A stretch of DNA of 64,000 nucleotides from a virus (IMGVR_UViG_3300036971_000130); one strand, 5' to 3'; numbered from the stretch's first letter, positions 18,777-53,850 are shown. Notes: generated from the letters alone by a model not told the origin. Program-made: numbers and translations.

Positions 18777-18798
18777 AACCTATCAGCCGGGGGTGACA
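18777..18798 (-). promoter_or_regulatory. PafBC/RecA-NDp-like promoter
   Basis: TGTCAC-ccccggctga-TAGGTT upstream of the AAA ATPase. Confidence 0.5.
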
Positions 18799-19664
18799 CT
18801 CCCAAGCGGCTCGCCGTAATTGTCGAACTCGGGCATCTCTCCGTAGCGGTGGAGAGGGAAGCTGTCACCGTCACGCTTCTTACGCCAGACCGTCGGGATA
18901 CTCACCTCGGTGAATCCGTGCTTGGTCATGGTCCCACGGCGCTTGGGGGACGGTGTAATCCATCTCACCGAATCGCCGTCATCGTCCTTGACGCACCACT
19001 TCGATCCGTACTGCGTCGACACCATCCGGATGTCATCTCGGACCTGCCCAGTTTCGAGATCGACGAGGTAGGTCTTGTCGTAGCTGAAGTACCTGTCGTC
19101 GGATTCGATGATCCCCAGCGAGCATTCCTCGCAGGTGCAGCCACCGAGGTACTTCGTCGGGTGGCCGTGAGGTGCAACGAACGCACAGTCCTCGCAGGTG
19201 CAGCCGTACTCCAACCGAGAAAGCGTTCCGTGTTCACCGTACTCAGCGGTGATCGCTGCTTCACGAGCTTCCGTCTCGGCGTCCCACTTCCTCCGACGGG
19301 CTTCAGCTTCGTCGAGTCGACGGGCGGCACGCCAGTCTCGCCAGTGCCGAGCGAGTTCCTCCCTGTTCATTCCGACTCGCTCGGCGCAGTCGGACCCGAT
19401 GTCATGGACCGTTCCCGTCTTCGTGTCCTCGACGACGTAGCAGTTGATGATGGCGGTGCCACAGTTCGCACAGGTACCGCCCGGTTGGACCGGAGCGTCA
19501 GGGGCAGCCTGGAACACCTTGCGGGTGAAGCCCTTGATCTTGCACTGCGACAGCCAAGGGAGCGTCGACCCGAGGTCGACATCGGACTTCGAGTGCTCGA
19601 CCGTCCCGAACTGGCCGTCGTTGCCAGCCTCTCCGGTGTGCTTCTTGCGGATCTTCTCGCTCAC
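18783..19664 (-). CDS. Cys-rich zinc-binding hypothetical protein with N-terminal GQF tag
   Basis: GTG overlaps the upstream TAG; CANC, IGSDC and two HG....(L/Y)..GCTCE.C motifs. Confidence 0.75.
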   Translation of the reverse strand: MSEKIRKKHTGEAGNDGQFGTVEHSKSDVDLGSTLPWLSQCKIKGFTRKVFQAAPDAPVQPGGTCANCGTAIINCYVVEDTKTGTVHDIGSDCAERVGMNREELARHWRDWRAARRLDEAEARRRKWDAETEAREAAITAEYGEHGTLSRLEYGCTCEDCAFVAPHGHPTKYLGGCTCEECSLGIIESDDRYFSYDKTYLVDLETGQVRDDIRMVSTQYGSKWCVKDDDGDSVRWITPSPKRRGTMTKHGFTEVSIPTVWRKKRDGDSFPLHRYGEMPEFDNYGEPLGSVTPG

Positions 19665-20524
19665 TACGACCTCGTCACGCTGTCGATGCCGTCGAAGAAC
19701 ATCTTGGCGAACCAGCGAACAGGTCGGAGAGACGACCTGAAGGCCCGCTCCTTCCACATGTCTCGGCGGTTCTGCTTGGCCTGCTTCTCAGCTTCGATGT
19801 TCCGCTCCCGGAACGCCCGGTCCTGGTCCACTAGCTTCTGCTCGTTCACCTGGTGGCGTTCGAGGTGCCGCTGCATCGCTTCGACAGCGTTCGAGTCGAT
19901 GTAGGGGTCGCCGTAGTCGTCGACGCTCGTGACGATGTACCCGCTCCATCCAGCGGCCCTGGCCTTGTTGTGGAGGTCGATGATGCCGGGGAGGTTCCGG
20001 GCTGGGACCATCTGCGACTTCCGAGGCGAGTCGATCAACTGGTCCGGGTTGTTGTCCTCGATGTGGTGAAGGGACCGGATGATGTAGTCCCGGTTCTCGT
20101 CACCTCGGTCGTAGAAGTCGTCGTCAGCGAGAGGTCGGACCGGGAACCCGTCCTCAGGCTCGACCAGCGGAGCCCTCTGCTCCATGTCGGCCAGCAGTGC
20201 TTCTCTCGCTCGGTCCGCCCGAGCCCAGTCGGGTTCGTTCGGGTAGTCGTCTGCGGTGATGTCGCTGACACCATCCCAGAGGTCTCCTTCTGGTGCGGAG
20301 CGATCCAGCCACTCCCCGAACTCGGGGTCGTCCATGAGGATGTCGTCGTAGTTGTCGTCGTCGTCGTCGGTGAGGTCGCTGGTGAGGTCGAGTTCGGGTC
20401 CTCGACCGAAGTCCGTCCTGTCGAACCGGCCACGGTCTCGGTTCTGGCTGTGGCTGTGATGAGCGTCGCCGTGATGGCGGCTACCATCCTGCGGAGGTCG
20501 GAACGAGGGGGAGAATCCAGGCAT
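19664..20524 (-). CDS. Acidic hypothetical protein with N-terminal tag
   Basis: Leaderless CCAATAGTT-N5-ATG; RDRGRFDRTDFGRGPELDL. Confidence 0.75.
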   Translation of the reverse strand: MPGFSPSFRPPQDGSRHHGDAHHSHSQNRDRGRFDRTDFGRGPELDLTSDLTDDDDDNYDDILMDDPEFGEWLDRSAPEGDLWDGVSDITADDYPNEPDWARADRAREALLADMEQRAPLVEPEDGFPVRPLADDDFYDRGDENRDYIIRSLHHIEDNNPDQLIDSPRKSQMVPARNLPGIIDLHNKARAAGWSGYIVTSVDDYGDPYIDSNAVEAMQRHLERHQVNEQKLVDQDRAFRERNIEAEKQAKQNRRDMWKERAFRSSLRPVRWFAKMFFDGIDSVTRS

Positions 20525-20529
20525 ACTCC

Positions 20530-20538
20530 AACTATTGG
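20530..20538 (-). promoter_or_regulatory. CCAATAGTT leaderless promoter motif (copy 1)
   Basis: Identical at 33619-33627 and 46368-46376, always 5 nt before an ATG. Confidence 0.7.
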
Positions 20539-20607
20539 CGGCTGGCTGGTCAACCCGCCACCCATGATGATCTGGAAGTACTCACCCGAATAGGACATTC
20601 CACCCAA

Positions 20608-21078: not shown

Positions 21079-21371
21079 GCGACAACGAAGTGGAAGTCGA
21101 AGCGAGCCAAGCCGATCTCGAAACGATGCTGGTGCAGAACCGGCCGTTGAGGATCGAGGCGATCGACAGATCAACCATGTTCGTTGTCGGCTCCGAGCCG
21201 AACTCGTCCCACTGCTACCGAGAGGTCGACGGCCAGGTTGTCTGGTCCGCCAACATCAGCGGACGAGATCACAGCAGGCAGTTGGCTGCGTTGTTCGACG
21301 TGTTCACGTCCCGGCCTGTCGTGTTCTGGTCCTTCGACCCGTCGAGGACTTTTTCCTTCGGACGACCCTGA
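21075..21371 (+). CDS. Hypothetical protein
   Basis: GTGA overlap with the upstream gene. Confidence 0.6.
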   Translation: MSDNEVEVEASQADLETMLVQNRPLRIEAIDRSTMFVVGSEPNSSHCYREVDGQVVWSANISGRDHSRQLAALFDVFTSRPVVFWSFDPSRTFSFGRP

Positions 21372-21384: not shown

Positions 21385-21406
21385 TGTCAGCCCCCTCCGG
21401 TAAGGT
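21385..21406 (+). promoter_or_regulatory. PafBC/RecA-NDp-like promoter
   Basis: TGTCAG-ccccctccgg-TAAGGT. Confidence 0.6.
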
Positions 21407-21440: not shown

Positions 21441-21572
21441 ATGAGAGAGCGTTGCTCTGTCTTTTTCAACACCAAGATCATGTACGAGTACCACCCGGTG
21501 ATCGTGCGCCAACGTCGTCGGGCCCGTCTGGCTGCGGCGGCGATGATCGCTTCCAAGTCAACGAGCGTGTAG
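21441..21572 (+). CDS. Small basic protein (43 aa)
   Basis: GAGGGG RBS before ATG, directly below the TGTCAG promoter. Confidence 0.4.
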   Translation: MRERCSVFFNTKIMYEYHPVIVRQRRRARLAAAAMIASKSTSV

Positions 21573-21583
21573 TATGGGTGGGT

Positions 21584-21886
21584 ATGTCCGATCACCCCAT
21601 CACACGGACCGTCTACCGACACACCGTCGACCACCTCTCAGGTGATCGTTCGGCCAAAGGCCGATGCCTCGAAGTGCTCCGGTTCTTCGGTCATGGGGAA
21701 GCCACGTTCGAGGCCATCTGCGCCGCCGTCCTCCAAGCACGGAACGCTGCTGTCGATGCCAGCCCGCTCTACGAGGGGCCTTCGACGCTCATGCTCTCGA
21801 TCTCACGTTTCGAGCGTGAGACGATGAAGCAGCAGATGTCCGTCGATGCCGTCTGCTCGTTCCTGACTCGACTCGCACCAGCCTGA
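21584..21886 (+). CDS. Hypothetical protein (MSDHPITR..)
   Basis: 3' part of ORF 21452..21886 with plausible codon bias. Confidence 0.55.
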   Translation: MSDHPITRTVYRHTVDHLSGDRSAKGRCLEVLRFFGHGEATFEAICAAVLQARNAAVDASPLYEGPSTLMLSISRFERETMKQQMSVDAVCSFLTRLAPA

Positions 21887-21925
21887 CCTCTACCGATCCG
21901 TCAGTCGACGGGCTACGCTGAGGAC

Positions 21926-22123
21926 ATGCCAGCCACACCACAGCAACACAAGGTCAGGCAGGATCGTCCCCTCGGCGTCATGTTCCGTGCCTGCACAAGA
22001 TGCAAGGAAGTGAAGCGGACGAGGACCGACTTCAGATGGATGCCCGGCCGGGTCAGGTTCCACCCGTGGTGCCTGCGGTGTGAAGCAGACCGTCGGAAGT
22101 TCAGGTCACACCGGAAGCAGTAG
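21926..22123 (+). CDS. Small zinc-finger protein
   Basis: CTRCKEVK..F..CLRC; GAGGA RBS. Confidence 0.6.
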   Translation: MPATPQQHKVRQDRPLGVMFRACTRCKEVKRTRTDFRWMPGRVRFHPWCLRCEADRRKFRSHRKQ

Positions 22124-40949: not shown

Positions 40950-40993
40950 TCGGACCTGGACACGTTTGGTTGTCGCCATCCATGGTGAGAATC

Positions 40994-41173
40994 ATGGACA
41001 TGAACCGCTTCCAGAGGATCACCACCAACACGGAACTCGTGAACGCCTTGTTCTACGTTCTCGTGTGGACGATGTGCCTCGTCACCAGCGTCATCGCCTT
41101 CAGGATCAACGACATCGCAGGGTTCATCACCATCCTGGTCATCGCCTACCTGTCCAACGACAAGAAGAACTGA
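40994..41173 (+). CDS. Small two-TM membrane protein
   Basis: CATGGT-N7-ATG; two hydrophobic helices. Confidence 0.6.
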   Translation: MDMNRFQRITTNTELVNALFYVLVWTMCLVTSVIAFRINDIAGFITILVIAYLSNDKKN

Positions 41174-41178
41174 CCGCC

Positions 41179-42927: not shown

Positions 42928-42945
42928 TTCAGTCCTCTCACGAGA

Positions 42946-42977
42946 AGTGCCCGGCCCCATTGTAGGGACCGGGCACT
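42946..42977 (-). terminator. Hairpin downstream of ssb
   Basis: AGTGCCCGG..CCGGGCACT. Confidence 0.55.
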
Positions 42978-43007
42978 CAGGTTCTCATTTAGCCCCGAAG
43001 GGCCGGA

Positions 43008-43433
43008 TCAGAAGGCTTCCTCGTCGTTGGACGCTGCGGCGGCAGTCGGACGAGCGGAACCGTTGCCACCGCCGTTGCCGGATGAGCGGGTGATCTCCGC
43101 CGTGGCGAAGGCGAGGTCGACGGACACCTTGTCTGCAACGATCGAGGTGACGGGGACCTTGACCTCGTTACCCTCGTCGTCCTTCAGGACACGGTCGAAC
43201 TGGGTCAGGTAGCCCTCGATCGTGACGCGGTCGCCCTTCTTCAGCGTCTTCGAGGCGTTGACGGCGCTGAACCAGTTGGTGACGGAGAACCGGATCGAGG
43301 TCTCGTTGTCGCCGCTGCCCTCGTTGGAGATGAGGAACAGGTTGACACGAGCCTTCTTGCCGTCAGCAGCGGGGGTGAAGGTGGGATCGGAACCGAGGTT
43401 CCCGGTGATGAACACCGTGTTGTTGAACGCCAT
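43008..43433 (-). CDS. ssb: Single-stranded DNA-binding protein
   Basis: ITGNLGSDP, LKKGDRVTIEGYL, acidic tail DEEAF. Confidence 0.92.
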   Translation of the reverse strand: MAFNNTVFITGNLGSDPTFTPAADGKKARVNLFLISNEGSGDNETSIRFSVTNWFSAVNASKTLKKGDRVTIEGYLTQFDRVLKDDEGNEVKVPVTSIVADKVSVDLAFATAEITRSSGNGGGNGSARPTAAAASNDEEAF

Positions 43434-43450
43434 GATGGTGCTCCCTTGGT

Positions 43451-43496
43451 AGACCGGCCGTAGCCGGTGGTGATTGGAGACCGGCCGTAGCCGGTG
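43451..43496 (-). repeat. 19-bp direct repeat, each copy a C(UACG)G hairpin in the ssb leader
   Basis: AGACCGGCCGTAGCCGGTG at 43451 and 43478. Confidence 0.85.
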
Positions 43497-43529
43497 ATAA
43501 GGAGCCGGAATCGCTGGCTTCTTGACTAC

Positions 43530-43551
43530 ATTCTCTACAAGGGGGCTGACA
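43530..43551 (-). promoter_or_regulatory. PafBC/RecA-NDp-like promoter of ssb
   Basis: TGTCAG-cccccttgta-GAGAAT. Confidence 0.55.
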
Positions 43552-43589
43552 GTCTGTGGTGATTTACGAGGAATCTCCGAAAGATTTTC

Positions 43590-44300: not shown

Positions 44301-44353
44301 GGTCACCATCATGGGTCGGGAAGCGGACGAAATCGTACCCCATCGTGTGACAT

Positions 44354-44806
44354 GTGTGTACACTCCCCTTCGTGGAAAAATGGGATGTCAGATACCGAGC
44401 CCTGATCGAGTACGTGGAGCGTGAGGGCCTGATCCCGTCCGCCCGCCGAGATCAGCGGATGGGCTCATGGGTGGCCGAGCAGAAGCGACGGCTCCGGAAG
44501 GGGATCATGCCCACCGAGCAGCGTGAGCTTCTCGAAGCCATCGACGGTTGGTACTGGGACAACGAGGATCTCCATGCCAGGGCTGGGTACAGTTCGCTCT
44601 GGAAGCGCAACTACGACAACCTGCTCACCTACATGGCCGAGAACAGCCGGTACCCTTCGCAGTTGAATGCGGATCGCTCGATCAGCAAGCTCGGCTCCTG
44701 GGTGTCCAGGCAGCGTCAGACGTACCGTGGGGACAAGAAGTCACGCCCCCTCACGGCTCGACAGATCGAGATGCTCGAACGCCTCCCCCAGTGGAACTGG
44801 GGTTAG
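44354..44806 (+). CDS. Stand-alone helicase-associated (HA) repeat protein
   Basis: Two W...Y..L..Y......P.....(M/L)GSWV..Q(K/R) units. Confidence 0.8.
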   Translation: MCTLPFVEKWDVRYRALIEYVEREGLIPSARRDQRMGSWVAEQKRRLRKGIMPTEQRELLEAIDGWYWDNEDLHARAGYSSLWKRNYDNLLTYMAENSRYPSQLNADRSISKLGSWVSRQRQTYRGDKKSRPLTARQIEMLERLPQWNWG

Positions 44807-46362
44807 CGCCGGTACCCGAGGATGTTCTCCAAGGCGATCGCACGACCTTCGGCGTTGGCGTCGTAGGTCTGGCTGCTTCGGTCCACGTCGTAGCCAGGCC
44901 GGATCGGGTTGTAGAGCAGGTCGCTCGGTTCCCTCTTGTCAGCGATCGCTTCAGCGGCGCTGACGTACCCGGCGACGTAGGCGGAGAGTTCAGATCCGGT
45001 CTTGTCGGTCGGCGGGATCGTGGTGCCTGCGAGAGCAGGGTGCGTCGAATGGGTCTCGGCCTTCCACCTGTCCGGGTGGTTGGTGGCGAGCGCCACGGGG
45101 CCAGAGGGTCGGGTGTACGGCTTGTTGGCTGTCCGGGCCTGGTGTGATCCGGCGATCGCCCTCGTCATCTGATCGACCGCTTCGACCGTCTTGCGTCGAG
45201 GGTTGTACGGGGACAGTGTCCTGACCGAAGCCGAGATCCTCTTGTTCGTGTCGAGCAGGACATCGAAAGCTTCGTCGTAGCTGCTCGTGGCGAGAGCCGG
45301 GTCCCTGATGATCTCGTCAGCGAAGCCGCCGAATCCCGCTCCCCACTTCCGGATGGTCCTGTGGGGGATGCCGGTCTCGCCGTGGATGTGGGCGACATCC
45401 TCGGGGCTGAGAGGGGTGCCGAGGTAGTAGCTCCCGTCCGAGAACGAACGCCCCTCCACGATGGTCGACCCGTACACGCCTTCGGGGGCGTGGTCAGCGA
45501 ACAGGACGGCGATGGCCGTTCGACGACTCAGGTACACGGTGAGGTTGGGGTCCGACTCGGTCTCGAAGGTCTCGGAGGAAACGAGGCCACGGAGACCAGC
45601 GTCCGAGATGAGAGGTGGCACGGTGTCGAAGTGGTCTTCCAGGAGAGCGATGCGCTGGTTCCGACCGACGAGGTGTACCCTTTCCAGAATGCTGCCAGGC
45701 ATCGGCGTTCCCGTGCCTTCCCTGCTGATCGCTCTGACGAGATCCGATGCGACATCGTCGTTCGGTGAGATGCCGTACTCCCTGGCCTGGTCAGCGAGAC
45801 GGGGGTTCGCCCCGAGTTCCTTCCAGCGAAGCGCCTCACCCAGTGGGTACCCGGAGTCGGTCCACTTCCGTTCCTCGGTGACCGGAATCCCGGCCATGAG
45901 CCATTCGAGGGACCGGTCGCATTCGGACGTGATGAGTTCGCTGTCACGCCACCCGTCGGGGAACACCGCTTCCTCGTAGGAGATGAGCAGGTCGTCCTCC
46001 CCCATCAGGCCATCCTCGGTCGAGTAGCCAGACCAGACGACCTGACCGTCGGCATCGAGAACGTAGGCCAGGTGGTCCGCTCCGTCGGGAACGTGATCGC
46101 CGTAGTCGAATGGCCTCGTCGAGATCGTGAGGGACGAGACCCAAACCGCTTCCTCCGGGTCGAAGTGGGACGGCGAGACCAGGTCGTAGACGTTGGCCTC
46201 GGTGTCGGAGTCGAAGACCGCCCCATCGAGTTCGTTCAGCCGCTCATCACGGATGGTCGAAACAGACGAGAGGTCGATGTCCGCCCCGAAGTTGTGGACG
46301 AAGCTGGTCCACCTGCCGAGACGATCACGGGGGCCGGAGCCAGGGGGCATTGTTGAGGTCAT
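44803..46362 (-). CDS. Hypothetical protein with N-terminal tag
   Basis: Leaderless CCAATAGTT-N5-ATG; PRDRLGRWTSFVHNFGADIDL. Confidence 0.75.
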   Translation of the reverse strand: MTSTMPPGSGPRDRLGRWTSFVHNFGADIDLSSVSTIRDERLNELDGAVFDSDTEANVYDLVSPSHFDPEEAVWVSSLTISTRPFDYGDHVPDGADHLAYVLDADGQVVWSGYSTEDGLMGEDDLLISYEEAVFPDGWRDSELITSECDRSLEWLMAGIPVTEERKWTDSGYPLGEALRWKELGANPRLADQAREYGISPNDDVASDLVRAISREGTGTPMPGSILERVHLVGRNQRIALLEDHFDTVPPLISDAGLRGLVSSETFETESDPNLTVYLSRRTAIAVLFADHAPEGVYGSTIVEGRSFSDGSYYLGTPLSPEDVAHIHGETGIPHRTIRKWGAGFGGFADEIIRDPALATSSYDEAFDVLLDTNKRISASVRTLSPYNPRRKTVEAVDQMTRAIAGSHQARTANKPYTRPSGPVALATNHPDRWKAETHSTHPALAGTTIPPTDKTGSELSAYVAGYVSAAEAIADKREPSDLLYNPIRPGYDVDRSSQTYDANAEGRAIALENILGYRR

Positions 46363-46367
46363 GCTCT

Positions 46368-46376
46368 AACTATTGG
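46368..46376 (-). promoter_or_regulatory. CCAATAGTT leaderless promoter motif (copy 3)
   Basis: Exact 9-mer 5 nt before ATG; overlaps the upstream stop codon. Confidence 0.65.
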
Positions 46377-46540
46377 CGGGGAGCGTACCGATTTGCGTGC
46401 AGGTCGAACTGGGCCTGCACGTCGGTCGCTGCCTTGGCGTGGATGTCCCATCGTCCGCAGGTACACTCCCCGTAGGTGGCCCCTGCCCGCTGCTTCAGGT
46501 TGTGCTCGACCGGCTTCTTGGCTGTGGTGGCTGTCGTCAT
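46370..46540 (-). CDS. 56-aa zinc-binding protein (not in the ORF track)
   Basis: MTTATTAKKPVEHNLKQRAGATYGECTCGRWDIH..FDLH; purine-rich RBS; fills the intergenic gap. Confidence 0.6.
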   Translation of the reverse strand: MTTATTAKKPVEHNLKQRAGATYGECTCGRWDIHAKAATDVQAQFDLHANRYAPRQ

Positions 46541-46553
46541 CTCTCCGTCTTTC

Positions 46554-47396
46554 CTAGGCCACGTCGATGTCGAGGTGGTCTTGGATGACCTCGATGGCGT
46601 GGGCTTTCAGGATGCGGATGATATTACGGCACCGTGACACTGAGATGCCAGAGTCTCGTGCGATCGTGGTCACATTGAAGACCGCTGGGGCGTTGGGGTC
46701 CATGCACGGATGCAGGTACATCTCCGCCACCCGGCCGTGGTCGTCGCTGATCGAGTAGGCGTAGTCGATCAGCGTTCGGGCGAACCCGGCAACCTCGGAA
46801 GCAGCAAGGCTTCCCTGACCGGGGAGCGTGAGTTCCTCGATGTCGTGGTTCTGACGCATCACGTCGAAGTCGTTGTGCTCACCGACGAGGATCGGACGGA
46901 TCTGGATGCGATCGCTCTCGGTGACCCTTCCGACCTTCGTCGGATTCCCGAACCTTGCGTTGATGTCGTTCTGGGCAGCCTCGATGACTTCTTCGGTCGT
47001 CGGGAGGGTGCCGTTCATCGCCGTGAGAGCTTCTTCTGCCTTCAGGGTGATGCGCCAACGGTCGACCTGGCCTCGTGATCCGGAGACGCCGGTCGACGAG
47101 ACGGACTGTGAGAAGTCCCGCATCGGGGCGACCGACTCACGCCGGAGGATCTGAAGGAAGTCGTACCCTGCCAGGTTCGGTCGGTTCAGGATGGTGTCCG
47201 CCTGCATGGCGACGATCTGCACGTAGTCGTCGATGTCCCGGTTCTCCTGGATGCCCCGGTACAGGAAGGTGCCAGCAATGGCCCGGTAGTTCGGCATGGC
47301 ATCCCGATGGAAGGCGTTGATGGCTCTGGTCCGACTGCGACCTTCGCTCATCCCCATGATCTCCAACGCTCGGTCGGTCATCTGGCTCATCTTCAT
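46554..47396 (-). CDS. Divergent sigma70-family (FliA/WhiG-like) factor
   Basis: DIDDYVQIVA (region 2), LTAMNGTLPTTEEVIEA (region 3), VTTIARDSGISVSRCRNII (region 4 HTH). Confidence 0.65.
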   Translation of the reverse strand: MKMSQMTDRALEIMGMSEGRSRTRAINAFHRDAMPNYRAIAGTFLYRGIQENRDIDDYVQIVAMQADTILNRPNLAGYDFLQILRRESVAPMRDFSQSVSSTGVSGSRGQVDRWRITLKAEEALTAMNGTLPTTEEVIEAAQNDINARFGNPTKVGRVTESDRIQIRPILVGEHNDFDVMRQNHDIEELTLPGQGSLAASEVAGFARTLIDYAYSISDDHGRVAEMYLHPCMDPNAPAVFNVTTIARDSGISVSRCRNIIRILKAHAIEVIQDHLDIDVA

Positions 47397-47785
47397 CGGG
47401 TGCGCTCCCTCATCGGGGTGAACGGGAAGCCCGCCCAGAGTTGCTTTGGCGTTGTGGCTTCCACGTAAGCGTTGATCCTCGAACCTTGGGAACGGACATC
47501 GACCAGCCAGCCTACCGTGAGAACGTCCTTGGTTCGGATACCAAGGATTCGACGCATGATGGTGATGGTCTTTCTGGCCCCCGAGATTGTAGACCCTGGC
47601 GGAGCGGTGAGCACCTGTTCGAGCGGCATCTTCCAGAGGTCACGTCCGTCAGGCGTCTGAGCGTGCAGGATCAGGTCGTCGACCGTGAGGATTCCCTCCC
47701 GGATCGACAGCAGCCAGTCTCCCCGCTTCTCGTAGATGCGGAGGCGAGCTTCGTTGAGCTTCTCGACCGAGTTCTCCGGCCGCAT
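47393..47785 (-). CDS. mIHF-like (H2TH) nucleoid-associated protein
   Basis: KLNEAR..R..L..G.LTVDDLI..WKMPLEQVLTAPPG..ARK.. parallels actinobacterial IHF (KMKVSALLESLPGVG..A). Confidence 0.55.
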   Translation of the reverse strand: MRPENSVEKLNEARLRIYEKRGDWLLSIREGILTVDDLILHAQTPDGRDLWKMPLEQVLTAPPGSTISGARKTITIMRRILGIRTKDVLTVGWLVDVRSQGSRINAYVEATTPKQLWAGFPFTPMRERTR

Positions 47786-47791
47786 GCAGGT

Positions 47792-48619
47792 CTACGTCCT
47801 CGCTGTGACGGGCTTGTAGGCGAGGGAGCGGAACACCGTCTCCAACGTCACATGACGATCCGGGAAGTGCTCGTTGTAGATGCGCCAGACCGACTCGACA
47901 TCCATCCCATCGGCGTGCTCCTTGGCGAAGGACCGGATCTCAGCACCACGACGGGTGTCGTTGGTGACCGACCTGATCGCTTGACGGCAGACGTTCTCGA
48001 TCCTGAGAGCGATGATCCGATGTGGCTCCTGCTCAGAGCCGAAGTCTTCCTCGGTCACGCCGGTGATGATCTTCTCGATCGGGGACTGACCAGAGATGGT
48101 TTTGCCTCCGAAGTCGACGACCGAGGAAGCGAGATCCGCCACCGTGCTGTCGGTGTTCAGGGCGATCAGACGCTCACGAACCTGATCCGAGATGACCTCT
48201 CGCAGTTCCCAGTTGGCGTCCTTGGTTCCACGAGCGAGATCCCAGATCTCAGGCCGTGGCACTCGTCCGATGGTCTGCATCCCGTCGATGTCCACGGAGT
48301 AGGCCCACCGGGTTCCTCCGGGAGCGTAGAAGTCGACCATGGATGTGCCGCTGCGCCCGTCGGAGGTCGTCCATTCGAGCATGGTGCCGTCGGGGATGTA
48401 GGCGAACGGCCCGACGCCTCCCCAGTTGACCTTCACCCGGCGACGCTTGCCCTTGGGTGTGGTCGTCGTGACCCAGATGGGCAGGACCACGGGGATGCCT
48501 TCGTGCTGTGGAGTGGGGGTCTTCGAGTAGGCGATGTGCCAGAGGTAGTTCGAGACCGCCCAGTTCATCCGCTCGACACGTTCGAGGGGGACCATGTGGT
48601 TAGGCAGCATCTTCTTCAC
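47792..48619 (-). CDS. Hypothetical protein
   Basis: GC3-biased ORF inside the operon. Confidence 0.7.
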   Translation of the reverse strand: MKKMLPNHMVPLERVERMNWAVSNYLWHIAYSKTPTPQHEGIPVVLPIWVTTTTPKGKRRRVKVNWGGVGPFAYIPDGTMLEWTTSDGRSGTSMVDFYAPGGTRWAYSVDIDGMQTIGRVPRPEIWDLARGTKDANWELREVISDQVRERLIALNTDSTVADLASSVVDFGGKTISGQSPIEKIITGVTEEDFGSEQEPHRIIALRIENVCRQAIRSVTNDTRRGAEIRSFAKEHADGMDVESVWRIYNEHFPDRHVTLETVFRSLAYKPVTART

Positions 48620-49457
48620 CTCTGGCCTTCACGGCGACCATGATCATTGCGATGCATGCGATTGGGACGATCACGAGAATGATGTACTTCAGGACGAGGA
48701 ACAGGGCGGAGATTCCAACGAGGAAGCTCGGAGTCGGGTTCTCCTGCGACCGGACGGTGGTCCAGGCGTAGAGCCCGACGATGATGGCGATGACACACCC
48801 GACGAAGACCGGGATGCTGAGTCCACCGGGGAGGAACGTGGAGACGAGGAAGGCGATCGCTCCGGCGGAGACGGGGATCACTGCGGACGCCGGTGACTGC
48901 CAGAGCGATCCGTCCGACTTCGAGACCTGCCTGGTTCCCGACGTGGTCGAGAATCTCTCCGAGAGCGTCGAGATCGCAGCCTTGACCTTGACGAGCAGGT
49001 CGCTCTCGCCCCGCTCTGGCTTGGTCTTCTCGGGCCTGCCGACCGTCTCGGACTTCGGCTCCCTCTCCCTCTCCCGCTTCAGCTTCGACACATCGAACAG
49101 GTCGGTGAACATGTCCGATGTGGGTGCGCCGATGTCCTCAGCACCACCACTCTCGAACCAGCCTTCGTCGAGGTCCGCTGCGATCCTTGACGGAATCCAG
49201 CTTTCGCCAGTCCCCGGATCACGCCAGCCAGCGAAGGCGGTGTCAGGCACCGGGTCCGTGACGAGCGTCGGAGTCGGCTGCTCCTGTTCGCTCGTGATCG
49301 CCCGGTAAGCGTCGTCGACTTCGAGGTACTTGGCGAGATCACCGGTTTCTGAACGGTCGGGGTGGTAGCGGAAAACTGCGCTTCGCCAGGCTGCCCGGAC
49401 GACTGCTGGGCTAGCTCCACGCTCGATCCCGAGCACCGACCAAGGGTCGACGCTCAT
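48600..49457 (-). CDS. J-domain membrane protein
   Basis: DPWSVLGI..RYHPDR..AY; C-terminal TMs. Confidence 0.85.
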   Translation of the reverse strand: MSVDPWSVLGIERGASPAVVRAAWRSAVFRYHPDRSETGDLAKYLEVDDAYRAITSEQEQPTPTLVTDPVPDTAFAGWRDPGTGESWIPSRIAADLDEGWFESGGAEDIGAPTSDMFTDLFDVSKLKREREREPKSETVGRPEKTKPERGESDLLVKVKAAISTLSERFSTTSGTRQVSKSDGSLWQSPASAVIPVSAGAIAFLVSTFLPGGLSIPVFVGCVIAIIVGLYAWTTVRSQENPTPSFLVGISALFLVLKYIILVIVPIACIAMIMVAVKARGEEDAA

Positions 49458-49460
49458 GGA

Positions 49461-51362
49461 TCATCCTCGCTTCTTGAACAGCGACGAGAGGATGCCGGTC
49501 TTCTTCTCGGAGATCGGCTCCGGCTCGAAGTCGGGGTCCCCGGTGACCATGAGAACCACCTTGTCGATCGCCGCCGAGAAGTCGGGGTGACCGGAGACCA
49601 GGTGGCCGGTGTTGGTCAGGAGGATCACGTCCTCCTGCTGCTTGATGATCCCGACGATGTTGATGCCGGGCGAGAAGTTGCGCTCGACCAGAGCGAGATC
49701 GAGGTCGTTCGGGACACGGTTCAGGAGCAGGAAGATCCGGTTCGGGTCGATCCCGTCCTGATGGATCAGCTTGTCGACGAGCCAGCGGTTGTTCGTGATG
49801 CCCTCACGGTCGGCGTCGGAGACGACGAAGACCCATCCTCCGCCGGAACGAACGGTCGGGATGGCGATGTAGTCGACCATGCCTCGGGCGTCGGTGGCTT
49901 CGACCGTCTGGGTGTCGAACACGACCAGGTCCACCTGGCTACGGATGGCGTCGAGCACCCGCTGGTAGTCGTCGATGCTGACCTGGCTGACGTTGTCCTT
50001 GTCCGGACCGAAGACCGTGGCGAACCTGATCGGCTCACGGATGCCAGCGTTCGCACGAGCGTTCGAGAGGGTCTCACCGGTCGTGACCGCACGAGCGAGG
50101 GAACCCTCGGCACGGGCGTGGTAGATCGACCTCGGGGACGAGACCCGAAGCTTGCCCTGCACGTCGGCCTGGCCGATGTTGCCGTCGATGAGGACGACCT
50201 TCATCGGGTCTTCCGGGGAGAGGGCGTAGGAGCGGTTGGCTGCCCGGTCGGCCGTGGTGATGGAGACCGTGGTCTTGCCGACACCACCCTTGCCCGACAT
50301 CACGAAGATCACGGGAGCGGTCTTCTGACCGAAGATCCGGGAAGGGGAAGCCTTCGGGGTGGTACCGAACCCGTTGCCGACCGCCTGAGCTTCGCTGAAC
50401 ATGTCCGGCTCCGGCGGGGCAGGAGCAGGTTGGTAGACGGCTTCGGGAGTCGCCGTGGTGCCGAAGATCGACGGTTCCGGGGGAGGTGCAGGAGCGGGAG
50501 GCTGGAACCTCGACGGCTCGGGCTGCGGGGCGGGAACCTCAACCTGGCGGGCGAAGGGATCGTCAACAGCCGGAGCCGGTGGCTGGTACACCGGCTCCGG
50601 CTGGTACGCAACGGGAGCCTGATGCTGGGCAGGCTCCGGCTGGTACTGGGCTGGCGCTGTGAACGGGTCATCAGCGGGCGGAGGGGTCACGGTCTCGAAC
50701 GGGTCGACGTAGGAGGTCTGAACCGGAGGGGCCGGAGTCGGCATGACCGCCGGGGTGGCGAACGGATCGTCGGGGAGTTCCTGCTGGACCGGAACGGGGG
50801 CGCTCGGCTGCATCGTCTCGAACGGGTTGTCGTCGGCGGGCTCGGGGGTGATCGACGCCGGAGGCATCGACTCGAACGGATCTTCGACGGGGACCGGGGT
50901 TGGGGCAGGGGCCGGGGCCGGGTCGACGAAGGACATCCAGTCGTCCTCTGCCGGGACGGGTTCGGGTTCCGGTTCGACATGGACGGGGGCGGGAACGGAG
51001 CCGTCGCCGTGGAAGATGGCGTCGCCATCGGGGCTGCTGATCTCGCTGATCCCGAGTCCGAGCAGGATGGCGTTCACGGTGAGTCCGGACGGGACCTTCC
51101 GGAACTGCTCGGGCGATTCGTCACCGATCACGTTCACCGAAGTGGCGAGTTGAGACATGGCGGTGAGCCATGCGGTCAAGCCGGGCTGGTGCGAGAACAA
51201 GGCGATGATGTGGATGGGTTCCCCGGCTGCCTTCGCAGCGTCCACCTCGTTCTTGATCAACATGGCGTTCTGGCGGAACTCCCCTCCACCGACAACGGTG
51301 ATCCCGTTGCGGGAGAAGATTTCTGCGAGTTCTGGGAGGTCAATCAGACCGACGGAGGTCAC
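49461..51362 (-). CDS. MinD/ParA/CpaE-family ATPase with Pro-rich linker
   Basis: SGKGGVGKTT, VLIDGN, VVFDT, LLNRVP; amphipathic tail GILSSLFKK. Confidence 0.85.
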   Translation of the reverse strand: MTSVGLIDLPELAEIFSRNGITVVGGGEFRQNAMLIKNEVDAAKAAGEPIHIIALFSHQPGLTAWLTAMSQLATSVNVIGDESPEQFRKVPSGLTVNAILLGLGISEISSPDGDAIFHGDGSVPAPVHVEPEPEPVPAEDDWMSFVDPAPAPAPTPVPVEDPFESMPPASITPEPADDNPFETMQPSAPVPVQQELPDDPFATPAVMPTPAPPVQTSYVDPFETVTPPPADDPFTAPAQYQPEPAQHQAPVAYQPEPVYQPPAPAVDDPFARQVEVPAPQPEPSRFQPPAPAPPPEPSIFGTTATPEAVYQPAPAPPEPDMFSEAQAVGNGFGTTPKASPSRIFGQKTAPVIFVMSGKGGVGKTTVSITTADRAANRSYALSPEDPMKVVLIDGNIGQADVQGKLRVSSPRSIYHARAEGSLARAVTTGETLSNARANAGIREPIRFATVFGPDKDNVSQVSIDDYQRVLDAIRSQVDLVVFDTQTVEATDARGMVDYIAIPTVRSGGGWVFVVSDADREGITNNRWLVDKLIHQDGIDPNRIFLLLNRVPNDLDLALVERNFSPGINIVGIIKQQEDVILLTNTGHLVSGHPDFSAAIDKVVLMVTGDPDFEPEPISEKKTGILSSLFKKRG

Positions 51363-51405
51363 GTTCCAGGCTCCTTGCTTGGCGTCTGGATGGTATCTCT
51401 ACACA

Positions 51406-51443
51406 AAGAACCCCCAGCCATGGTGAAATAGCTGGGGGTTCTT
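51406..51443 (-). terminator. Hairpin with CCATGGTGAAATAG in its loop
   Basis: AAGAACCCCCAGC..GCTGGGGGTTCTT. Confidence 0.65.
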
Positions 51444-51482
51444 CAGAAGGGCAGAGTCACCGCACTGCGGCGATGGGTGCTG

Positions 51483-52097
51483 CTACGGGCGCTCGTACAT
51501 CGGAGCGTACGTCGGGTTGTCGGCGTCGTAGTCCGACGCACGGAACTGCGGGACGATGGCCCGGAGGACTCGGGCGCTGTGGCCCTGCGTGCCGGGGATC
51601 GACTCGTGAGCGACCACGAACGAGCACTTCCAGCCCTTGTGCTGCTGTGCGATCTGGGCGAGGTGACGCCCGTAGGGGGTGTTCAGGAAGTCCGTGCGAG
51701 CGAACTCCTTCTCGAAGGTCGCCCCGTCGGAACCAGGGGTCCCCTTCCAGCTTCCCATCGAGACCATCGCACGGGCCGAGGTCTTGCTCACTCCCTCCCT
51801 CGGCTCGATCTTCTTGACCCCGAGCAGGGTGCCGTAGAAGATCGAGATGTTCGGGTCACCGAAGGCGTCGATGACCTGCCCGATCGGGCCACGGGGGTCC
51901 CGAACCAGGAGAAGGGTCTCGGCCAAGGTCTGGGCGACCTGGACGGTGCGATCTTCCTCGATCACGTTCTTCTTCTCGCCTTCGCCGGAGGTCTGGAACG
52001 ACTCCGGGTCGAGGGATGCGAGGATGTTGCTCACCACGGCGAGCCGCTCTCCCTGGTCGAGAATCAGGGGGTTCTTGTTCTTGGGTCCGTCAGCCAT
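51483..52097 (-). CDS. Hypothetical protein (start MADGPK)
   Basis: AAAGGA RBS before ATG 52097. Confidence 0.7.
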   Translation of the reverse strand: MADGPKNKNPLILDQGERLAVVSNILASLDPESFQTSGEGEKKNVIEEDRTVQVAQTLAETLLLVRDPRGPIGQVIDAFGDPNISIFYGTLLGVKKIEPREGVSKTSARAMVSMGSWKGTPGSDGATFEKEFARTDFLNTPYGRHLAQIAQQHKGWKCSFVVAHESIPGTQGHSARVLRAIVPQFRASDYDADNPTYAPMYERP

Positions 52098-52125
52098 GAC
52101 AGTTGTCCTTTGTGGGTTGTGACGC

Positions 52126-52677
52126 TCAGGCGTCGGCGATCTTCCACAGCGGGTAGGCGGGGGCCTTCTTCGCTGCGGCAGCCTTCTTGGCGACAGCCCC
52201 ACGAGGGGCAGCCTTCGGCTGGTTCTTGGTGCCGTGATCGACGAGGGTTGCGATGGCGGCGTCGAGGTCGAAGCCTTCCTCGTTCTCGGCAAGGGAGAGG
52301 GCGGAACGGGTCATGCGGGTGACCACGTTGACGGCCTGATTGTACCAGGCCCGCCACTCGTCGGCGGAGGTGCTGCCGATCGGCGGCTTGCGCTGATCGC
52401 AGAAGGCGAAGTAGAAGCCACGGATTCGAACGTGGCTGCCGTGCTGGCGATCCGTTGCACCGAACACCTTGTTCTGCACGGTGTCGCAGATCGACAGGGC
52501 GAGCATCGCGATGGAGTCCATCGCCGGTGACGTGACCGGGAACTCCGAAGCGTCGATGATCTGGAATGCGTGCGACACACCGGACGCCGATGCGGTCATG
52601 GCGTAGGAGTTCGGGTTGATCTCCCGGCCACCGTTCGGGAGGTTGATCCACTTCTCCCAGGGCTTGCTTTCGGACAT
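52126..52677 (-). CDS. Hypothetical protein with its own start inside the 552-aa ORF
   Basis: AAAGAGGA RBS + ATG (MSESKPW) and a TGTCAG-N10-CATACT promoter upstream. Confidence 0.6.
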   Translation of the reverse strand: MSESKPWEKWINLPNGGREINPNSYAMTASASGVSHAFQIIDASEFPVTSPAMDSIAMLALSICDTVQNKVFGATDRQHGSHVRIRGFYFAFCDQRKPPIGSTSADEWRAWYNQAVNVVTRMTRSALSLAENEEGFDLDAAIATLVDHGTKNQPKAAPRGAVAKKAAAAKKAPAYPLWKIADA

Positions 52678-53784
52678 GGTGTCCTCTTTCCGTCTGCCCG
52701 ATTCGTGGCTCTCACGACCGGGGTTCCCACCAGTATGCAGGGAGGGGCTGACAATCTGAAGAACGCCGTCTTCGGACTGGTCAGATCCTCCACGTCGGAG
52801 GGTGTCCAACTTGATGATGGTTCCGTCTGCTGCAACGGGCCGAGACCACCTGGACCTCTGACCCTTCGGGCATGATGCCACAACCGGGCACCAAGGGCAA
52901 AGGGGAGATGGCTTCGCCTCGAACTCGTTGGCGTCCACGGAGTACCGGAGCCGCCGCCAGCCCTTGTTGAACCGCTCGAAGGTGCCGGACATCTCGGATT
53001 CGGAGGTGTCGACGTGGCGGACGACACCGTGGCGGGTGAACAGGAGCTTGGCTCCGACCGGGCGCTTCCCGGTGAGCTTCTCGACAGCGGCGAGGTAGAG
53101 ACGAAGCTGGTCGCCCTTCTCGTCGGGGCTGTAGACCTTCCCGACCTTCCCGGCCTTGTAGTCACCGACGATCATGTTGCCGTTGTCGTCGAGTTCGGTG
53201 CGGTCGATGAAGCCGGTGAACGGGGTCCCTGCGATCTCGACGAGGACGTTCTCCGGCTTGACCTTCTCACCCTTCTTCACAGGGATGTTGATGGGCCACT
53301 CGTTGCGGAAGACGTTGACCTTCTGCGGGTCCTCCATGTGCCACAGGCCGATGGTCCGCTTCCAGATTTCGGAGATCAGGGTGAGCCTGGTCCGCCTCTG
53401 GTGTTCTTCGTCTCCCTCGAACGGGTTGGTCACATCGAAGCCGTGGTCACGCATCTCCTGTGCTTCGACGACAGCCGATTCGATCGTCTCGTCAGCGACC
53501 TGAGTCGTGATGGTTCGAGCCATCTCACGGGTCCGCTTCTCGGCAGGCAGGTTGAACATCGCCTCCAACACCGAGTGGGCGTTGGTTCCCAGCGGTGCCG
53601 GTCCGAAGGGGTCGAACTGCCGGGGGAGCGCCTTGTCGGCTGCGGTCCTCGCCGGGCACGAGTTCATCGAGTTCGCCGTCGAAGCCGACAGACGATCACG
53701 GTTGGCCTTCCCGAGAGATTCGGGGCTGAGTGTGAGGTGACCCTCCGGGGTCCACCACATGCCAAGCTGTTCGCTCTGGCTCAT
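52126..53784 (-). CDS. RecB/Cas4-like PD-(D/E)xK exonuclease, read through into a second gene
   Basis: LSAS..SCP, GTNAHSVLE, GFIDR, GDYKAG, QLRLY, CPWCP..CP Fe-S staple. Confidence 0.85.
   Translation of the reverse strand: MSQSEQLGMWWTPEGHLTLSPESLGKANRDRLSASTANSMNSCPARTAADKALPRQFDPFGPAPLGTNAHSVLEAMFNLPAEKRTREMARTITTQVADETIESAVVEAQEMRDHGFDVTNPFEGDEEHQRRTRLTLISEIWKRTIGLWHMEDPQKVNVFRNEWPINIPVKKGEKVKPENVLVEIAGTPFTGFIDRTELDDNGNMIVGDYKAGKVGKVYSPDEKGDQLRLYLAAVEKLTGKRPVGAKLLFTRHGVVRHVDTSESEMSGTFERFNKGWRRLRYSVDANEFEAKPSPLCPWCPVVASCPKGQRSRWSRPVAADGTIIKLDTLRRGGSDQSEDGVLQIVSPSLHTGGNPGRESHESGRRKEDTMSESKPWEKWINLPNGGREINPNSYAMTASASGVSHAFQIIDASEFPVTSPAMDSIAMLALSICDTVQNKVFGATDRQHGSHVRIRGFYFAFCDQRKPPIGSTSADEWRAWYNQAVNVVTRMTRSALSLAENEEGFDLDAAIATLVDHGTKNQPKAAPRGAVAKKAAAAKKAPAYPLWKIADA
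52732..52753 (-). promoter_or_regulatory. PafBC/RecA-NDp-like promoter
   Basis: TGTCAG-cccctccctg-CATACT; shares a 16-bp exact match with 53840-53855. Confidence 0.6.
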
Positions 53785-53828
53785 CTTCGTCCTTGCTGTT
53801 CAGGTCGATCGCCTGAACTCCGTCGTCC

Positions 53829-53850
53829 TTCTTACCTGAAGGGGCTGACA
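53829..53850 (-). promoter_or_regulatory. PafBC/RecA-NDp-like promoter of the nuclease
   Basis: TGTCAG-ccccttcagg-TAAGAA. Confidence 0.55.

What the first reader, a model, noticed from the sequence alone, without database searches (positions are those of the whole stretch)
18777..53850. Five PafBC/RecA-NDp-like promoters: element genes possibly wired to host ssDNA sensing
TGTCA[GC]-CCCC-N6-(-10) with an exact 10-nt spacer occurs five times: 18777-98 (TAGGTT, MoxR), 21385-406 (TAAGGT, small ORFs), 43530-51 (GAGAAT, ssb), 52732-53 (CATACT) and 53829-50 (TAAGAA, RecB-like nuclease). Established: mycobacterial PafBC activates TGTCGG-N10-TAnnnT promoters through a -26 element, and its WYL domains respond to single-stranded nucleic acid. 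Inference: the incoming T-strand or DNA damage switches on ssb and the nuclease through a host or element WYL activator, a form of zygotic induction. The extra CCCC hints at a specific paralog.
Basis: partly seen in the sequence, partly recalled or inferred. Interest (0 to 1): 0.75.

Follow-up and report, generated by a model that had tools for sequence, protein, structure and literature searches.

The report
PafBC-type damage promoters on a megaplasmid
A large conjugative plasmid-like element from a wastewater actinobacterium drives its ssb, a RecB-like nuclease and a few other genes from five promoters laid out exactly like the host promoters switched on by PafBC, the single-stranded-DNA alarm protein. 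It probably plugs these genes into the host's DNA-damage or DNA-entry sensor, but nothing has been tested at the bench.

Summary
TGTCA[G/C]CCCC occurs five times in 64 kb (0.47 expected; 0 of 100 shuffles reach 5). Each copy is followed after exactly 6 nt by a -10-like hexamer (A at position 2 in 5/5, T at position 6 in 4/5). All five point at a Shine-Dalgarno site and ATG 28-90 nt downstream.

The 22-nt layout equals the published PafBC consensus tGTCgg(N10)tA(N3)T, and there is no -35 box.

New support: in 401 Actinomycetes chromosomes the same 10-mer with a TAnnnT hexamer lies upstream of recA, radA, recC, a dnaE-type polymerase, tag, dnaN, a LexA/UmuD-type peptidase and phoH-like genes. 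PafBC-type promoters therefore tolerate this exact sequence.

Limits:
- CCCC is not required. Related recA promoters vary at these positions, and no sampled genome has more than two such sites, so its invariance here is unexplained.
- No WYL gene lies in the window or in two related complete Arthrobacter-type megaplasmids.
- The host and the other ~170 kb of the element are out of reach.
- No RNA data exist.
- Homologous elements lack the motif.
- The element encodes its own sigma-fold protein, which keeps a private-factor reading alive.

This scan has reported PafBC-like promoters before, on actinophages. Verdict: real promoters, probably PafBC-type; zygotic induction is untested.

The parts
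18777..18798 (-). Promoter s1: TGTCACCCCC-ggctga-TAGGTT
   Evidence: It starts 8 nt after the stop of the upstream ORF (18783-19757), so its -10 hexamer lies after the stop codon. The ATG at 18684 follows about 86 nt after the predicted start site, preceded by AGGAG.
16919..18684 (-). Unit driven by s1: AAA-type ATPase (17572-18684) overlapping an SGNH/GDSL-like hydrolase gene (16919-17608)
   Evidence: PF00004 is weak at E=0.0026; phrog_1297 'ATPase' scores 1e-31; GDSL/DUF459 hits are weak. No terminator-like site lies between the two genes.
21385..21406 (+). Promoter s2: TGTCAGCCCC-ctccgg-TAAGGT
   Evidence: It lies just after a terminator-like hairpin with a T run (21332-21347) near the 3' end of the upstream + strand operon (last ORF ends 21371).
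21441..22123 (+). Unit driven by s2: three small ORFs, 21441-21572 (43 aa), 21584-21886 (100 aa) and 21926-22123 (65 aa, four-Cys, weak NinD-like hit)
   Evidence: A Shine-Dalgarno sequence GAGGGGA precedes the ATG at 21441, giving a leader of about 28 nt.
43530..43551 (-). Promoter s3: TGTCAGCCCC-cttgta-GAGAAT
   Evidence: It is intergenic, about 39 nt after the stop of the YdjM-like gene (43590-44363).
43008..43433 (-). ssb gene, first gene of the s3 unit. Its leader of about 90 nt holds two identical 16-nt palindromes (43453-43468, 43480-43495).
   Evidence: PF00436 at 9.9e-11; palindromes; leader fold z = -3.3.
53829..53850 (-). Promoter s5: TGTCAGCCCC-ttcagg-TAAGAA (hexamer lacks T at position 6)
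   Evidence: It lies in the divergent intergenic region between the nuclease gene and the + strand gene 53985-54518. The ATG at 53784 follows about 38 nt after the predicted start site.
52126..53784 (-). PD-(D/E)XK (RecB/Cas4-like) nuclease, 552 aa, with a conserved C-terminal domain from residue ~372
   Evidence: PF12705 at 2.7e-22 over residues 31-306. Homologs are 25-35% identical, on Arthrobacter-type megaplasmids and in other Micrococcales and Propionibacteriales. Alignment A2.
52732..52753 (-). Promoter s4, inside the nuclease ORF: TGTCAGCCCC-tccctg-CATACT
   Evidence: It lies in the variable linker (codons ~344-351), 48 nt before the Shine-Dalgarno sequence GGAAAGAGGA and the in-frame ATG at 52677 (Met370). 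Invariant residues of the C-terminal domain start at E372-K374-P375.
51483..52097 (-). Second gene of the nuclease unit, 204 aa, no family. Structure-based rows in the ESM Atlas point to an OB-fold ssDNA binder (lead only).
   Evidence: One search gives the start (ATG 52097, Shine-Dalgarno AAAGGA). Searches found no family. One search gave Atlas rows for G5P-like and SSB clusters.
51401..51438 (-). Intrinsic terminator closing the nuclease unit: CCCCCAGC, a 12-nt loop, GGCTGGGGG, then TTCTTTGTGT
   Evidence: Read.
46554..47396 (-). Context, not part of the class: an element-encoded sigma-fold protein (280 aa), a possible reader of private promoter classes
   Evidence: No Pfam, NCBIfam or PHROG hit. 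The profile matches only sigma factors in PDB, weakly. The AF2 model has pLDDT 79. The top 50 Foldseek hits are nearly all sigma-factor chains.

Best explanation
The five sites are working promoters of the PafBC (RecA-NDp) type. Each has a -26 element (TGTCAG, with the GTC triplet read by the PafB helix-turn-helix), a housekeeping-sigma -10 hexamer exactly 10 nt further on, and no -35 box.

On its own, SigA-RNA polymerase should use them poorly. When a PafBC-family WYL activator binds single-stranded DNA, it inserts between the -26 element and sigma domain 4 ('sigma adaptation') and transcription starts about 7 nt after the hexamer. The activator is most likely the host's own PafBC.

The units switched on are:
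- ssb and the genes behind it;
- the RecB-like nuclease with a 204-aa partner;
- from the internal site, the nuclease's C-terminal domain and that partner;
- an AAA ATPase with an SGNH hydrolase;
- three small ORFs.

The trigger would be host DNA damage, or the single-stranded DNA present during conjugative entry.

Shown: sequence, spacing, statistics, gene context, and compatibility of the 10-mer with chromosomal damage-gene promoters. Inferred: who binds, the start site, and the inducing signal.
For: - Five exact 10-mers against 0.47 expected. Fixed spacing to tAnnnT hexamers. The full pattern occurred 0.01 times per simulated window.
- All five are co-oriented with a Shine-Dalgarno site and ATG 28-90 nt downstream. 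Four lie between genes, two of them right after a hairpin with a T run or a weaker hairpin of the upstream gene.
- The layout is identical to the published 22-nt PafBC motif tGTCgg(N10)tA(N3)T, with its -26 element and strictly conserved GTC (PMC8635444). ssDNA is the PafBC ligand (PMC11804915).
- No consistent -35: the hexamers 17 nt upstream of the -10 are TTGGGA, ACGTCG, CACAGA, TTCAGA and GCCAGA (read). The sigma-70 scan does not flag the sites.
- The opposite-strand reading (CTGACA as a -35) finds no consistent -10 (read).
- In 401 Actinomycetes genomes, TGTCAGCCCC-N6-nAnnnT gives 77 hits against 30 for the reversed control, and about 27 have TA. I fetched 20 TA-type sites. Their first downstream ORFs include RecC, RecA, RadA, a DnaE-type polymerase, Tag glycosylase, DnaN and an S24 LexA/UmuD-type peptidase. 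PhoH-like genes follow in three genomes, the third (L063) inferred from its N-terminus matching L062, not Pfam-scanned.
- 74 of 80 recA loci carry TGTC-N12-TAnnnT within 400 nt upstream.
- Generic TGTCRG-N10-TAnnnT is 10-20 times over control in three of the five genomes searched (G064, G385, G280), and CCC at positions 8-10 is a frequent subclass in G385.
- Two driven units are DNA-metabolism genes (ssb, PD-(D/E)XK nuclease), as in PafBC regulons.
Against: - CCCC is invariant in all five sites, yet orthologous recA promoters of close relatives vary freely at these positions, and no sampled genome has more than 2 such sites. PafBC recognition alone does not explain a 10-nt exact word.
- One hexamer (TAAGAA) lacks T at position 6, and two lack T at position 1.
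- None of 33 actinobacterial loci with a homologous nuclease has the motif upstream of that gene, except one Corynebacterium MAG. Only 3 strict sites occur in 486 kb of such loci. Two related complete megaplasmids show no clear excess. There is therefore no comparative conservation.
- The element has other private promoter classes (earlier notes) and its own sigma-fold protein, so a private reader is conceivable.
- The AAA ATPase/hydrolase unit and the small ORFs have no evident link to DNA damage.
- The host is unknown, so the presence of pafBC there is assumed from its wide distribution in Actinobacteria.
Confidence: 0.58

Rival explanations
1. A private, element-encoded DNA-binding protein reads the invariant 10-mer TGTCAGCCCC at -28 to -19. 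It would not be a WYL protein of the host, and might lie in the unseen ~170 kb. It could be an activator that replaces the -35 contact, or a repressor that keeps these -10-only promoters shut in the established plasmid. On this reading, the match to PafBC geometry is partial mimicry or coincidence.
For: - Exact conservation of 10 nt in five otherwise unrelated contexts, with no excess of one-mismatch variants.
- The word is used at most twice per genome in 401 Actinomycetes genomes.
- CCCC is not needed in chromosomal recA promoters.
- The element runs other private promoter classes (notes).
- The motif is absent from homologous elements.
Against: - No candidate regulator was identified; no HTH or WYL family hit in about 70 ORFs of the window.
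- The GTC triplet sits at exactly the PafBC distance from the -10 in 5 of 5 sites (PMC8635444).
- The same word with the same spacing fronts recA, radA, recC, tag and dnaE-type genes in chromosomes that lack this element.
Confidence: 0.22
2. The element's own sigma-fold protein (46554-47396) directs RNA polymerase to these five promoters, with TGTCAGCCCC serving as its upstream element.
For: The 280-aa protein has a sigma-70-family fold over its whole length. The top 50 Foldseek hits are nearly all sigma-factor chains, and the profile hits in PDB are almost all sigma factors, though weak. It lies in the same 64-kb region.
Against: - The upstream word lies only 10 nt (TGTCAG) or 6 nt (10-mer) from the -10. 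That is too close for a sigma domain 4 contact, which needs a spacer of 16-19 nt (established knowledge of sigma-70 holoenzymes).
- The hexamers look like housekeeping tAnnnT.
- The leaderless private classes are more natural clients: CCAATAGTT-N5-ATG occurs at 20524, 33613 and 46362, the last directly downstream of this sigma gene.
Confidence: 0.07
3. These are ordinary -10-only SigA promoters, common in Actinobacteria, that fire constitutively. The 10-mer has another role, or is a chance-amplified word.
For: Many actinobacterial promoters lack a -35. Three of five sites have G at -14, an extended -10 flavour (read).
Against: Five exact copies at a fixed distance from the -10 against 0.47 expected. 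The flanks are unrelated, which argues for selection on the word in this position.
Confidence: 0.1

Closest known systems
PafBC-dependent (RecA-NDp, recA P1-type) promoters of Mycobacterium, Streptomyces and other Actinobacteria, read by 'sigma adaptation' (PMC8635444, PMC11804915, PMC6789036, PMC5087735)
   Same: The 22-nt layout: TGTCRG at -28 to -23 with the GTC triplet, a 10-nt gap, a tAnnnT -10 and no -35. Leadered transcripts. DNA-metabolism genes among the targets. The same 10-mer is found at chromosomal recA, radA, recC and tag promoters.
   Different: The sites lie on a mobile megaplasmid-like element. Four further bases (CCCC) are invariant, which chromosomal regulons do not show. 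One copy is inside a gene at a domain boundary. Dependence on PafBC is untested, and the host is unknown.
PafBC-like promoter sets on uncultured actinophages, reported earlier by this same scan (AI notes, e.g. e1-6050246, e1-5939349)
   Same: A mobile element carrying several promoters with PafBC geometry, read as borrowing the host's ssDNA alarm.
   Different: Those are phages with 8-27 promoters in front of small early genes. Here a conjugative element has five promoters, two of them on ssb and a nuclease, with an extended invariant word. I did not check those notes.
Early leading-region expression of ssb/psiB/ardA from Frpo single-strand promoters on F-like and other plasmids of Proteobacteria (PMC9849209, PMC11541004)
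   Same: The idea that ssb and DNA-handling genes of a conjugative plasmid are switched on by the single-stranded state of entering DNA.
   Different: Frpo promoters are folded ssDNA hairpins used directly by RNAP. Here the promoter would be double-stranded, and ssDNA would act only as the ligand of an activator. It is not known whether these genes lie in the leading region.
SiwR, a second WYL activator of M. smegmatis acting at a -26 region (PMC10693628)
   Same: A WYL activator that senses ssDNA and acts at -26. It shows that PafBC paralogs with their own sites exist.
   Different: The SiwR site is a 19-bp imperfect palindrome with a GGA triplet at -26, not a non-palindromic TGTCAG word.

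Membership tests
PafBC-dependent (RecA-NDp) promoter | -26 element with conserved GTC triplet (tGTCgg) | tested here: met
   TGTCAG in four sites and TGTCAC in one. Consensus from PMC8635444.
PafBC-dependent (RecA-NDp) promoter | Exactly 10 nt between the hexamer TGTCRG and a SigA-type -10, tA(N3)T | tested here: met
   The spacing is identical in 5 of 5. A at position 2 in 5/5, T at position 6 in 4/5, T at position 1 in 3/5. About 1e-6 by chance per offset (composition).
PafBC-dependent (RecA-NDp) promoter | No -35 consensus | tested here: met
   The hexamers at the -35 position are unrelated to each other and to TTGACA (0-4 of 6; read). The sites are not flagged by the sigma-70 scan.
PafBC-dependent (RecA-NDp) promoter | The same sequence word functions in front of damage-response genes in actinobacterial chromosomes | tested here: met
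   Of 20 chromosomal TGTCAGCCCC-N6-TAnnnT sites, 7 precede recA, radA, recC, dnaE-type, tag, dnaN or S24-peptidase genes, and 3 precede phoH-like genes (one of these inferred from its N-terminus, not Pfam-scanned).
PafBC-dependent (RecA-NDp) promoter | Binding and activation by PafBC; induction by DNA damage or ssDNA | not testable with these tools
   No RNA run holds the element. No bench data.
PafBC-dependent (RecA-NDp) promoter | A pafBC (HTH-WYL-WCX) gene in the host or on the element | tested here: inconclusive
   No WYL hit in about 70 ORFs of the window, nor in two related complete megaplasmids. No whole genome is held.
PafBC-dependent (RecA-NDp) promoter | Transcription start 6-8 nt after the -10 | not testable with these tools
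   Only DNA contigs are available.
Frpo-type single-strand promoter of plasmid leading regions | Long imperfect hairpin that recreates -35 and -10 boxes in ssDNA | not tested
   Short hairpins upstream of s2, s3 and s5 look like terminators of the upstream genes. No dedicated search was made.
Sigma-70 family (for the 280-aa protein 46554-47396, considered as a rival reader) | Sigma 2, 3 and 4 domain fold | tested here: inconclusive
   The AF2 model has pLDDT 79. The top 50 Foldseek PDB hits are nearly all sigma-factor chains, with E of 1e-3 to 2e-2 and TM of 0.3-0.4. Profile hits to sigma factors are only E~0.03. No Pfam or NCBIfam hit.

The most novel reading that the evidence does not exclude
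The element uses the host's ssDNA sensor as an entry switch. While the long T-strand is still coming in, free ssDNA loads host PafBC. PafBC then fires the already double-stranded promoters of ssb and of the nuclease/OB-fold pair. This would be an actinobacterial counterpart of Frpo-driven leading-region expression, built on a quite different mechanism. The invariant CCCC would mark a high-affinity or element-tuned version of the -26 element, perhaps also bound by an element protein that silences the set once the plasmid is established.
Probability: 0.2. Interest if true: 0.75.

Novelty: new member of a known kind. Interest (0 to 1): 0.5.

Why it matters
PafBC is known as a chromosomal DNA-damage regulator. 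The paper library searched here holds no report of PafBC-type promoters on plasmids.

If the reading holds, a conjugative megaplasmid ties its ssDNA-handling genes to the host's ssDNA alarm. That would link DNA damage, and possibly DNA entry, to plasmid establishment or recombination in Actinobacteria, a group whose large plasmids are poorly understood.

It also offers five natural, near-identical -26 elements. These are a compact test set for asking which bases beyond GTC matter for sigma adaptation.

Tried and rejected
An exact 41-mer of the window was not found in metagenome contigs or viral contigs.
- No whole genome is held. The window has no megablast match in PLSDB.
- No RNA holder is listed for the element, so no test of start sites or expression was possible.
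- I laid the contigs of four other wastewater runs on 34101-54100. The element's own contigs show no differences. The listed variants come from other organisms' homologs of DnaE and YdjM. There is no informative variation at the sites.
- Comparative test on homologous nuclease loci: no motif upstream of the gene in 32 of 33 loci. Only 3 strict sites in 486 kb. Two Arthrobacter-type megaplasmids show 4 and 6 generic sites against 2 and 1 for the control.
- The hypothesis that TGTCAGCCCC is some host's general PafBC word: at most 2 sites per genome in 401 Actinomycetes genomes. There are almost none in five genomes that carry homologous nucleases.
- The opposite-strand reading (GGGGCTGACA as a -35-like box): no consistent -10.
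- A shared upstream element (TTCGG): variable distance. It looks like part of hairpins of the upstream genes.
- LexA SOS boxes: none perfect. Near-matches were not examined further and none lies near the five sites.
- Rfam: no family in the window.
- A cascade in which s5 drives the sigma-containing operon: rejected, because a strong terminator closes the unit at 51401-51438.
- The 'MoxR' label: no AAA_3 hit and no PDB relative.

Full report
**What the window is.** The 64-kb window has 61-66% G+C and no whole genome behind it. Its nuclease protein is on record on a 233,542-bp contig. The DNA is held by wastewater metagenome runs of several studies, all DNA.

Genes found by Pfam:
- a VirB4-like AAA_10 ATPase with a Hint insert, a TcpC-like protein and a DUF3854 protein;
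- a VanY/GDSL wall hydrolase;
- a 3489-aa SdrD_B-repeat surface protein;
- a DnaE-type polymerase with an intein;
- SSB, and a PD-(D/E)XK nuclease;
- a ParA/CpaE-like ATPase, and J-domain, HNH and helicase proteins.

The nuclease's relatives are only 25-35% identical. They lie on 375-600-kb Arthrobacter, Pseudarthrobacter and Curtobacterium megaplasmids and in other Micrococcales and Propionibacteriales. The window is therefore part of a large conjugative, plasmid-like element of an unidentified actinobacterium.

**The observation.** TGTCASCCCC occurs five times, at the stated places. The expectation is 0.47, and none of 100 shuffles reaches five. Allowing one mismatch adds nothing beyond chance.

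Oriented alike, each 10-mer is followed after six bases by TAGGTT, TAAGGT, GAGAAT, CATACT or TAAGAA. A at hexamer position 2 is invariant and T at position 6 is present in four. With 18% A and 19% T, this is about 1e-6 by chance at any one offset. The whole pattern appeared 0.01 times per simulated window. Flanks and spacers share nothing else, so these are not fresh duplications.

**Gene context.** All five point at a Shine-Dalgarno sequence and an ATG.
- s1 leads to an AAA-type ATPase that overlaps an SGNH-hydrolase gene. The leader is about 86 nt.
- s2 leads to three small ORFs of 43, 100 and 65 aa. The leader is about 28 nt.
- s3 leads to ssb. The leader is about 90 nt.
- s5 leads to the nuclease. 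The leader is about 38 nt.
- s4 lies inside the nuclease ORF. It sits in the variable linker, 48 nt before a Shine-Dalgarno site and the in-frame ATG at 52677 (Met370). The invariant residues of the conserved C-terminal domain start two codons later (alignment A2).

The nuclease unit continues into a 204-aa gene and ends at a strong terminator at 51401-51438. s2 follows a terminator-like hairpin with a T run, and s3 and s5 follow weaker hairpins. The 'MoxR' label is not supported.

**Comparison with PafBC promoters.** The published in vivo consensus is the 22-nt tGTCgg(N10)tA(N3)T. Its 5' part lies at -28 to -23 (the '-26 element') and is read by the PafB helix-turn-helix through the GTC triplet. 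Its 3' part is the SigA -10, and no -35 is present. PafBC sits between the DNA and sigma domain 4 (PMC8635444). ssDNA is the activating ligand (PMC11804915).

The five sites meet the three sequence criteria. The hexamers at the -35 position are unrelated to one another (read), and the sigma-70 scan does not flag the sites. Reading the word on the other strand, as a CTGACA -35 box, gives no consistent -10.

**A new test: does this exact word work as a PafBC-type promoter elsewhere?** In 401 Actinomycetes genomes, TGTCAGCCCC-N6-nAnnnT gave 77 hits against 30 for the reversed control. There were never more than two per genome, and about 27 hexamers started with TA. One hit each comes from the unpublished genomes G028 and G036; only the tally rests on them.

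I fetched 20 TA-type sites and scanned the first downstream ORFs.
- Damage or replication genes: RecC, RecA (169 nt downstream, in a relative of Candidatus Nanopelagicaceae), RadA, a DnaE-type polymerase, 3-methyladenine glycosylase, DnaN and an S24 LexA/UmuD-type peptidase.
- PhoH-like genes in three genomes. Two were confirmed by Pfam; the third (L063) is inferred from an N-terminus matching L062.
- The rest: two ABC transporters, an MscS channel, an aminotransferase, a metallo-beta-lactamase-fold protein and unknowns.

The word with this spacing is therefore in real use at damage-response promoters.

**General strength of the motif.** 74 of 80 recA loci carry TGTC-N12-TAnnnT within 400 nt upstream. 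In three of the five genomes searched (G064, G385, G280), TGTCRG-N10-TAnnnT gives 22-50 hits against 2-4 for the control. In one of them (G385), about a third of the sites have CCC at positions 8-10.

**What this does not explain.** Positions 7-10 differ among recA promoters of close relatives: CGCT, TGGC, TAGG, TGCC, TGGG and CCCC. PafBC therefore does not need CCCC, and five invariant copies call for an extra constraint. It could be a high-affinity subclass preferred by the unknown host, a DNA-shape requirement, or a second, element-specific protein.

The class is not shared by relatives. No motif lies upstream of the homologous nuclease in 32 of 33 loci. Only three strict sites occur in 486 kb of such loci. 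Two complete Arthrobacter-type megaplasmids show no clear excess.

**Who could read the sites.** No WYL or PafBC-like protein turned up in about 70 ORFs of the window, nor on the two related complete megaplasmids. The other ~170 kb could not be reached. PafBC is widespread in Actinobacteria, including Arthrobacter (PMC6789036), so the host's PafBC is the simplest reader.

The element does encode a sigma-fold protein at 46554-47396. It has no family hit. Its profile hits in PDB are weak and almost all sigma factors. The model has pLDDT 79, and the top 50 fold matches are nearly all sigma-factor chains. A word 6-10 nt from the -10 is too close for a sigma domain 4 contact. The leaderless CCAATAGTT-N5-ATG class is a better client for this protein.

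**Verdict.** These are real promoters (about 0.85). They are most likely PafBC-type and driven by a PafBC-family activator, probably the host's (about 0.58). A private factor is the main rival (about 0.2). The trigger, whether DNA damage or the entering T-strand, is inference only. The analogy with Frpo-driven ssb expression in leading regions (PMC9849209, PMC11541004) is functional, not mechanistic.

This scan has already reported PafBC-like promoter sets on several uncultured actinophages (unchecked AI notes). Here the carrier is a conjugative element, and two targets are ssDNA-handling genes. I found no paper on PafBC-type promoters on plasmids in the library.

Noticed in passing
window 52677-52753 (-): The internal promoter s4, a Shine-Dalgarno site and the in-frame ATG (Met370) sit exactly at the start of the nuclease's conserved C-terminal domain (invariant E372, K374, P375). 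This suggests a separately made 183-aa C-terminal product. Some homologs are nuclease-domain-only (379 aa) or much longer (854 aa).
   Followed up: partly
window 43453-43495 (-): The ssb leader holds two identical 16-nt palindromes, ACCGGCTACGGCCGGT, 27 nt apart (none expected). The leader folds well (z = -3.3) and can pair the Shine-Dalgarno region. This may be an operator or a translational control element.
   Followed up: partly
window 46554-47396 (-): A 280-aa protein without any family hit has a sigma-70-family fold by model and fold search. It has only 13 detectable relatives in 1.8 billion representative proteins.
   Followed up: yes
window 51483-52097 (-): The 204-aa gene behind the nuclease has no family. 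The ESM Atlas structure rows include G5P-like and SSB OB-fold clusters, so it may be an ssDNA-binding partner that makes an exonuclease/ssDNA-binder pair. This is a lead only.
   Followed up: partly
window 21441-21470 (+): A terminator-like hairpin with a T run (AGAGCGTTGCTCT, then GTCTTTTTCA) starts five bases after the ATG of the first small ORF behind s2. It may be an attenuator, or chance.
   Followed up: no
window 46618-46639 (-): TGTCACGGTG-ccgtaa-TATCAT, a match to the generic RecA-NDp pattern, lies in the 3' end of the sigma-like gene, about 250 nt before the next gene, which has its own CCAATAGTT promoter. It may be chance.
   Followed up: no
window 33647-38653 (-) and 59188-62844 (+): The DnaE-type polymerase carries an intein (Intein_splicing and Hint hits). 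The VirB4-like ATPase carries a weak Hint_2 hit.
   Followed up: no
window 20522-20537, 33611-33626, 46360-46375 (-): Three copies of the leaderless signal CCAATAGTT-N5-ATG head the genes starting at 20524, 33613 and 46362. This is a separate promoter class from the one studied here.
   Followed up: partly
L001 11389-11938 and L002 11234-11923 (Arthrobacter-type megaplasmids): Upstream of the homologous nuclease gene lie repeated short words (GCCAAC, GGTTGG or GGTCGTT) around TATATATA blocks, like an iteron-type origin.
   Followed up: no
NZ_CP099467.1 159529-159550 and NC_011879.1 55387-55408: Two related megaplasmids share a PafBC-like site, TGTC[A/G]GATG..GCTGCTA...T. It is intergenic and co-oriented with a hypothetical gene 56 and 282 nt downstream.
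   Followed up: partly
L062, L063, L077 (three Actinomycetes chromosomes): A PhoH-like ATPase gene carries TGTCAGCCCC-N6-TA(G/C)(C/G)(A/C)T 43-66 nt upstream in three genomes. This suggests phoH belongs to the PafBC-type regulon in that lineage. L063 was not Pfam-scanned; its N-terminus matches L062.
   Followed up: partly
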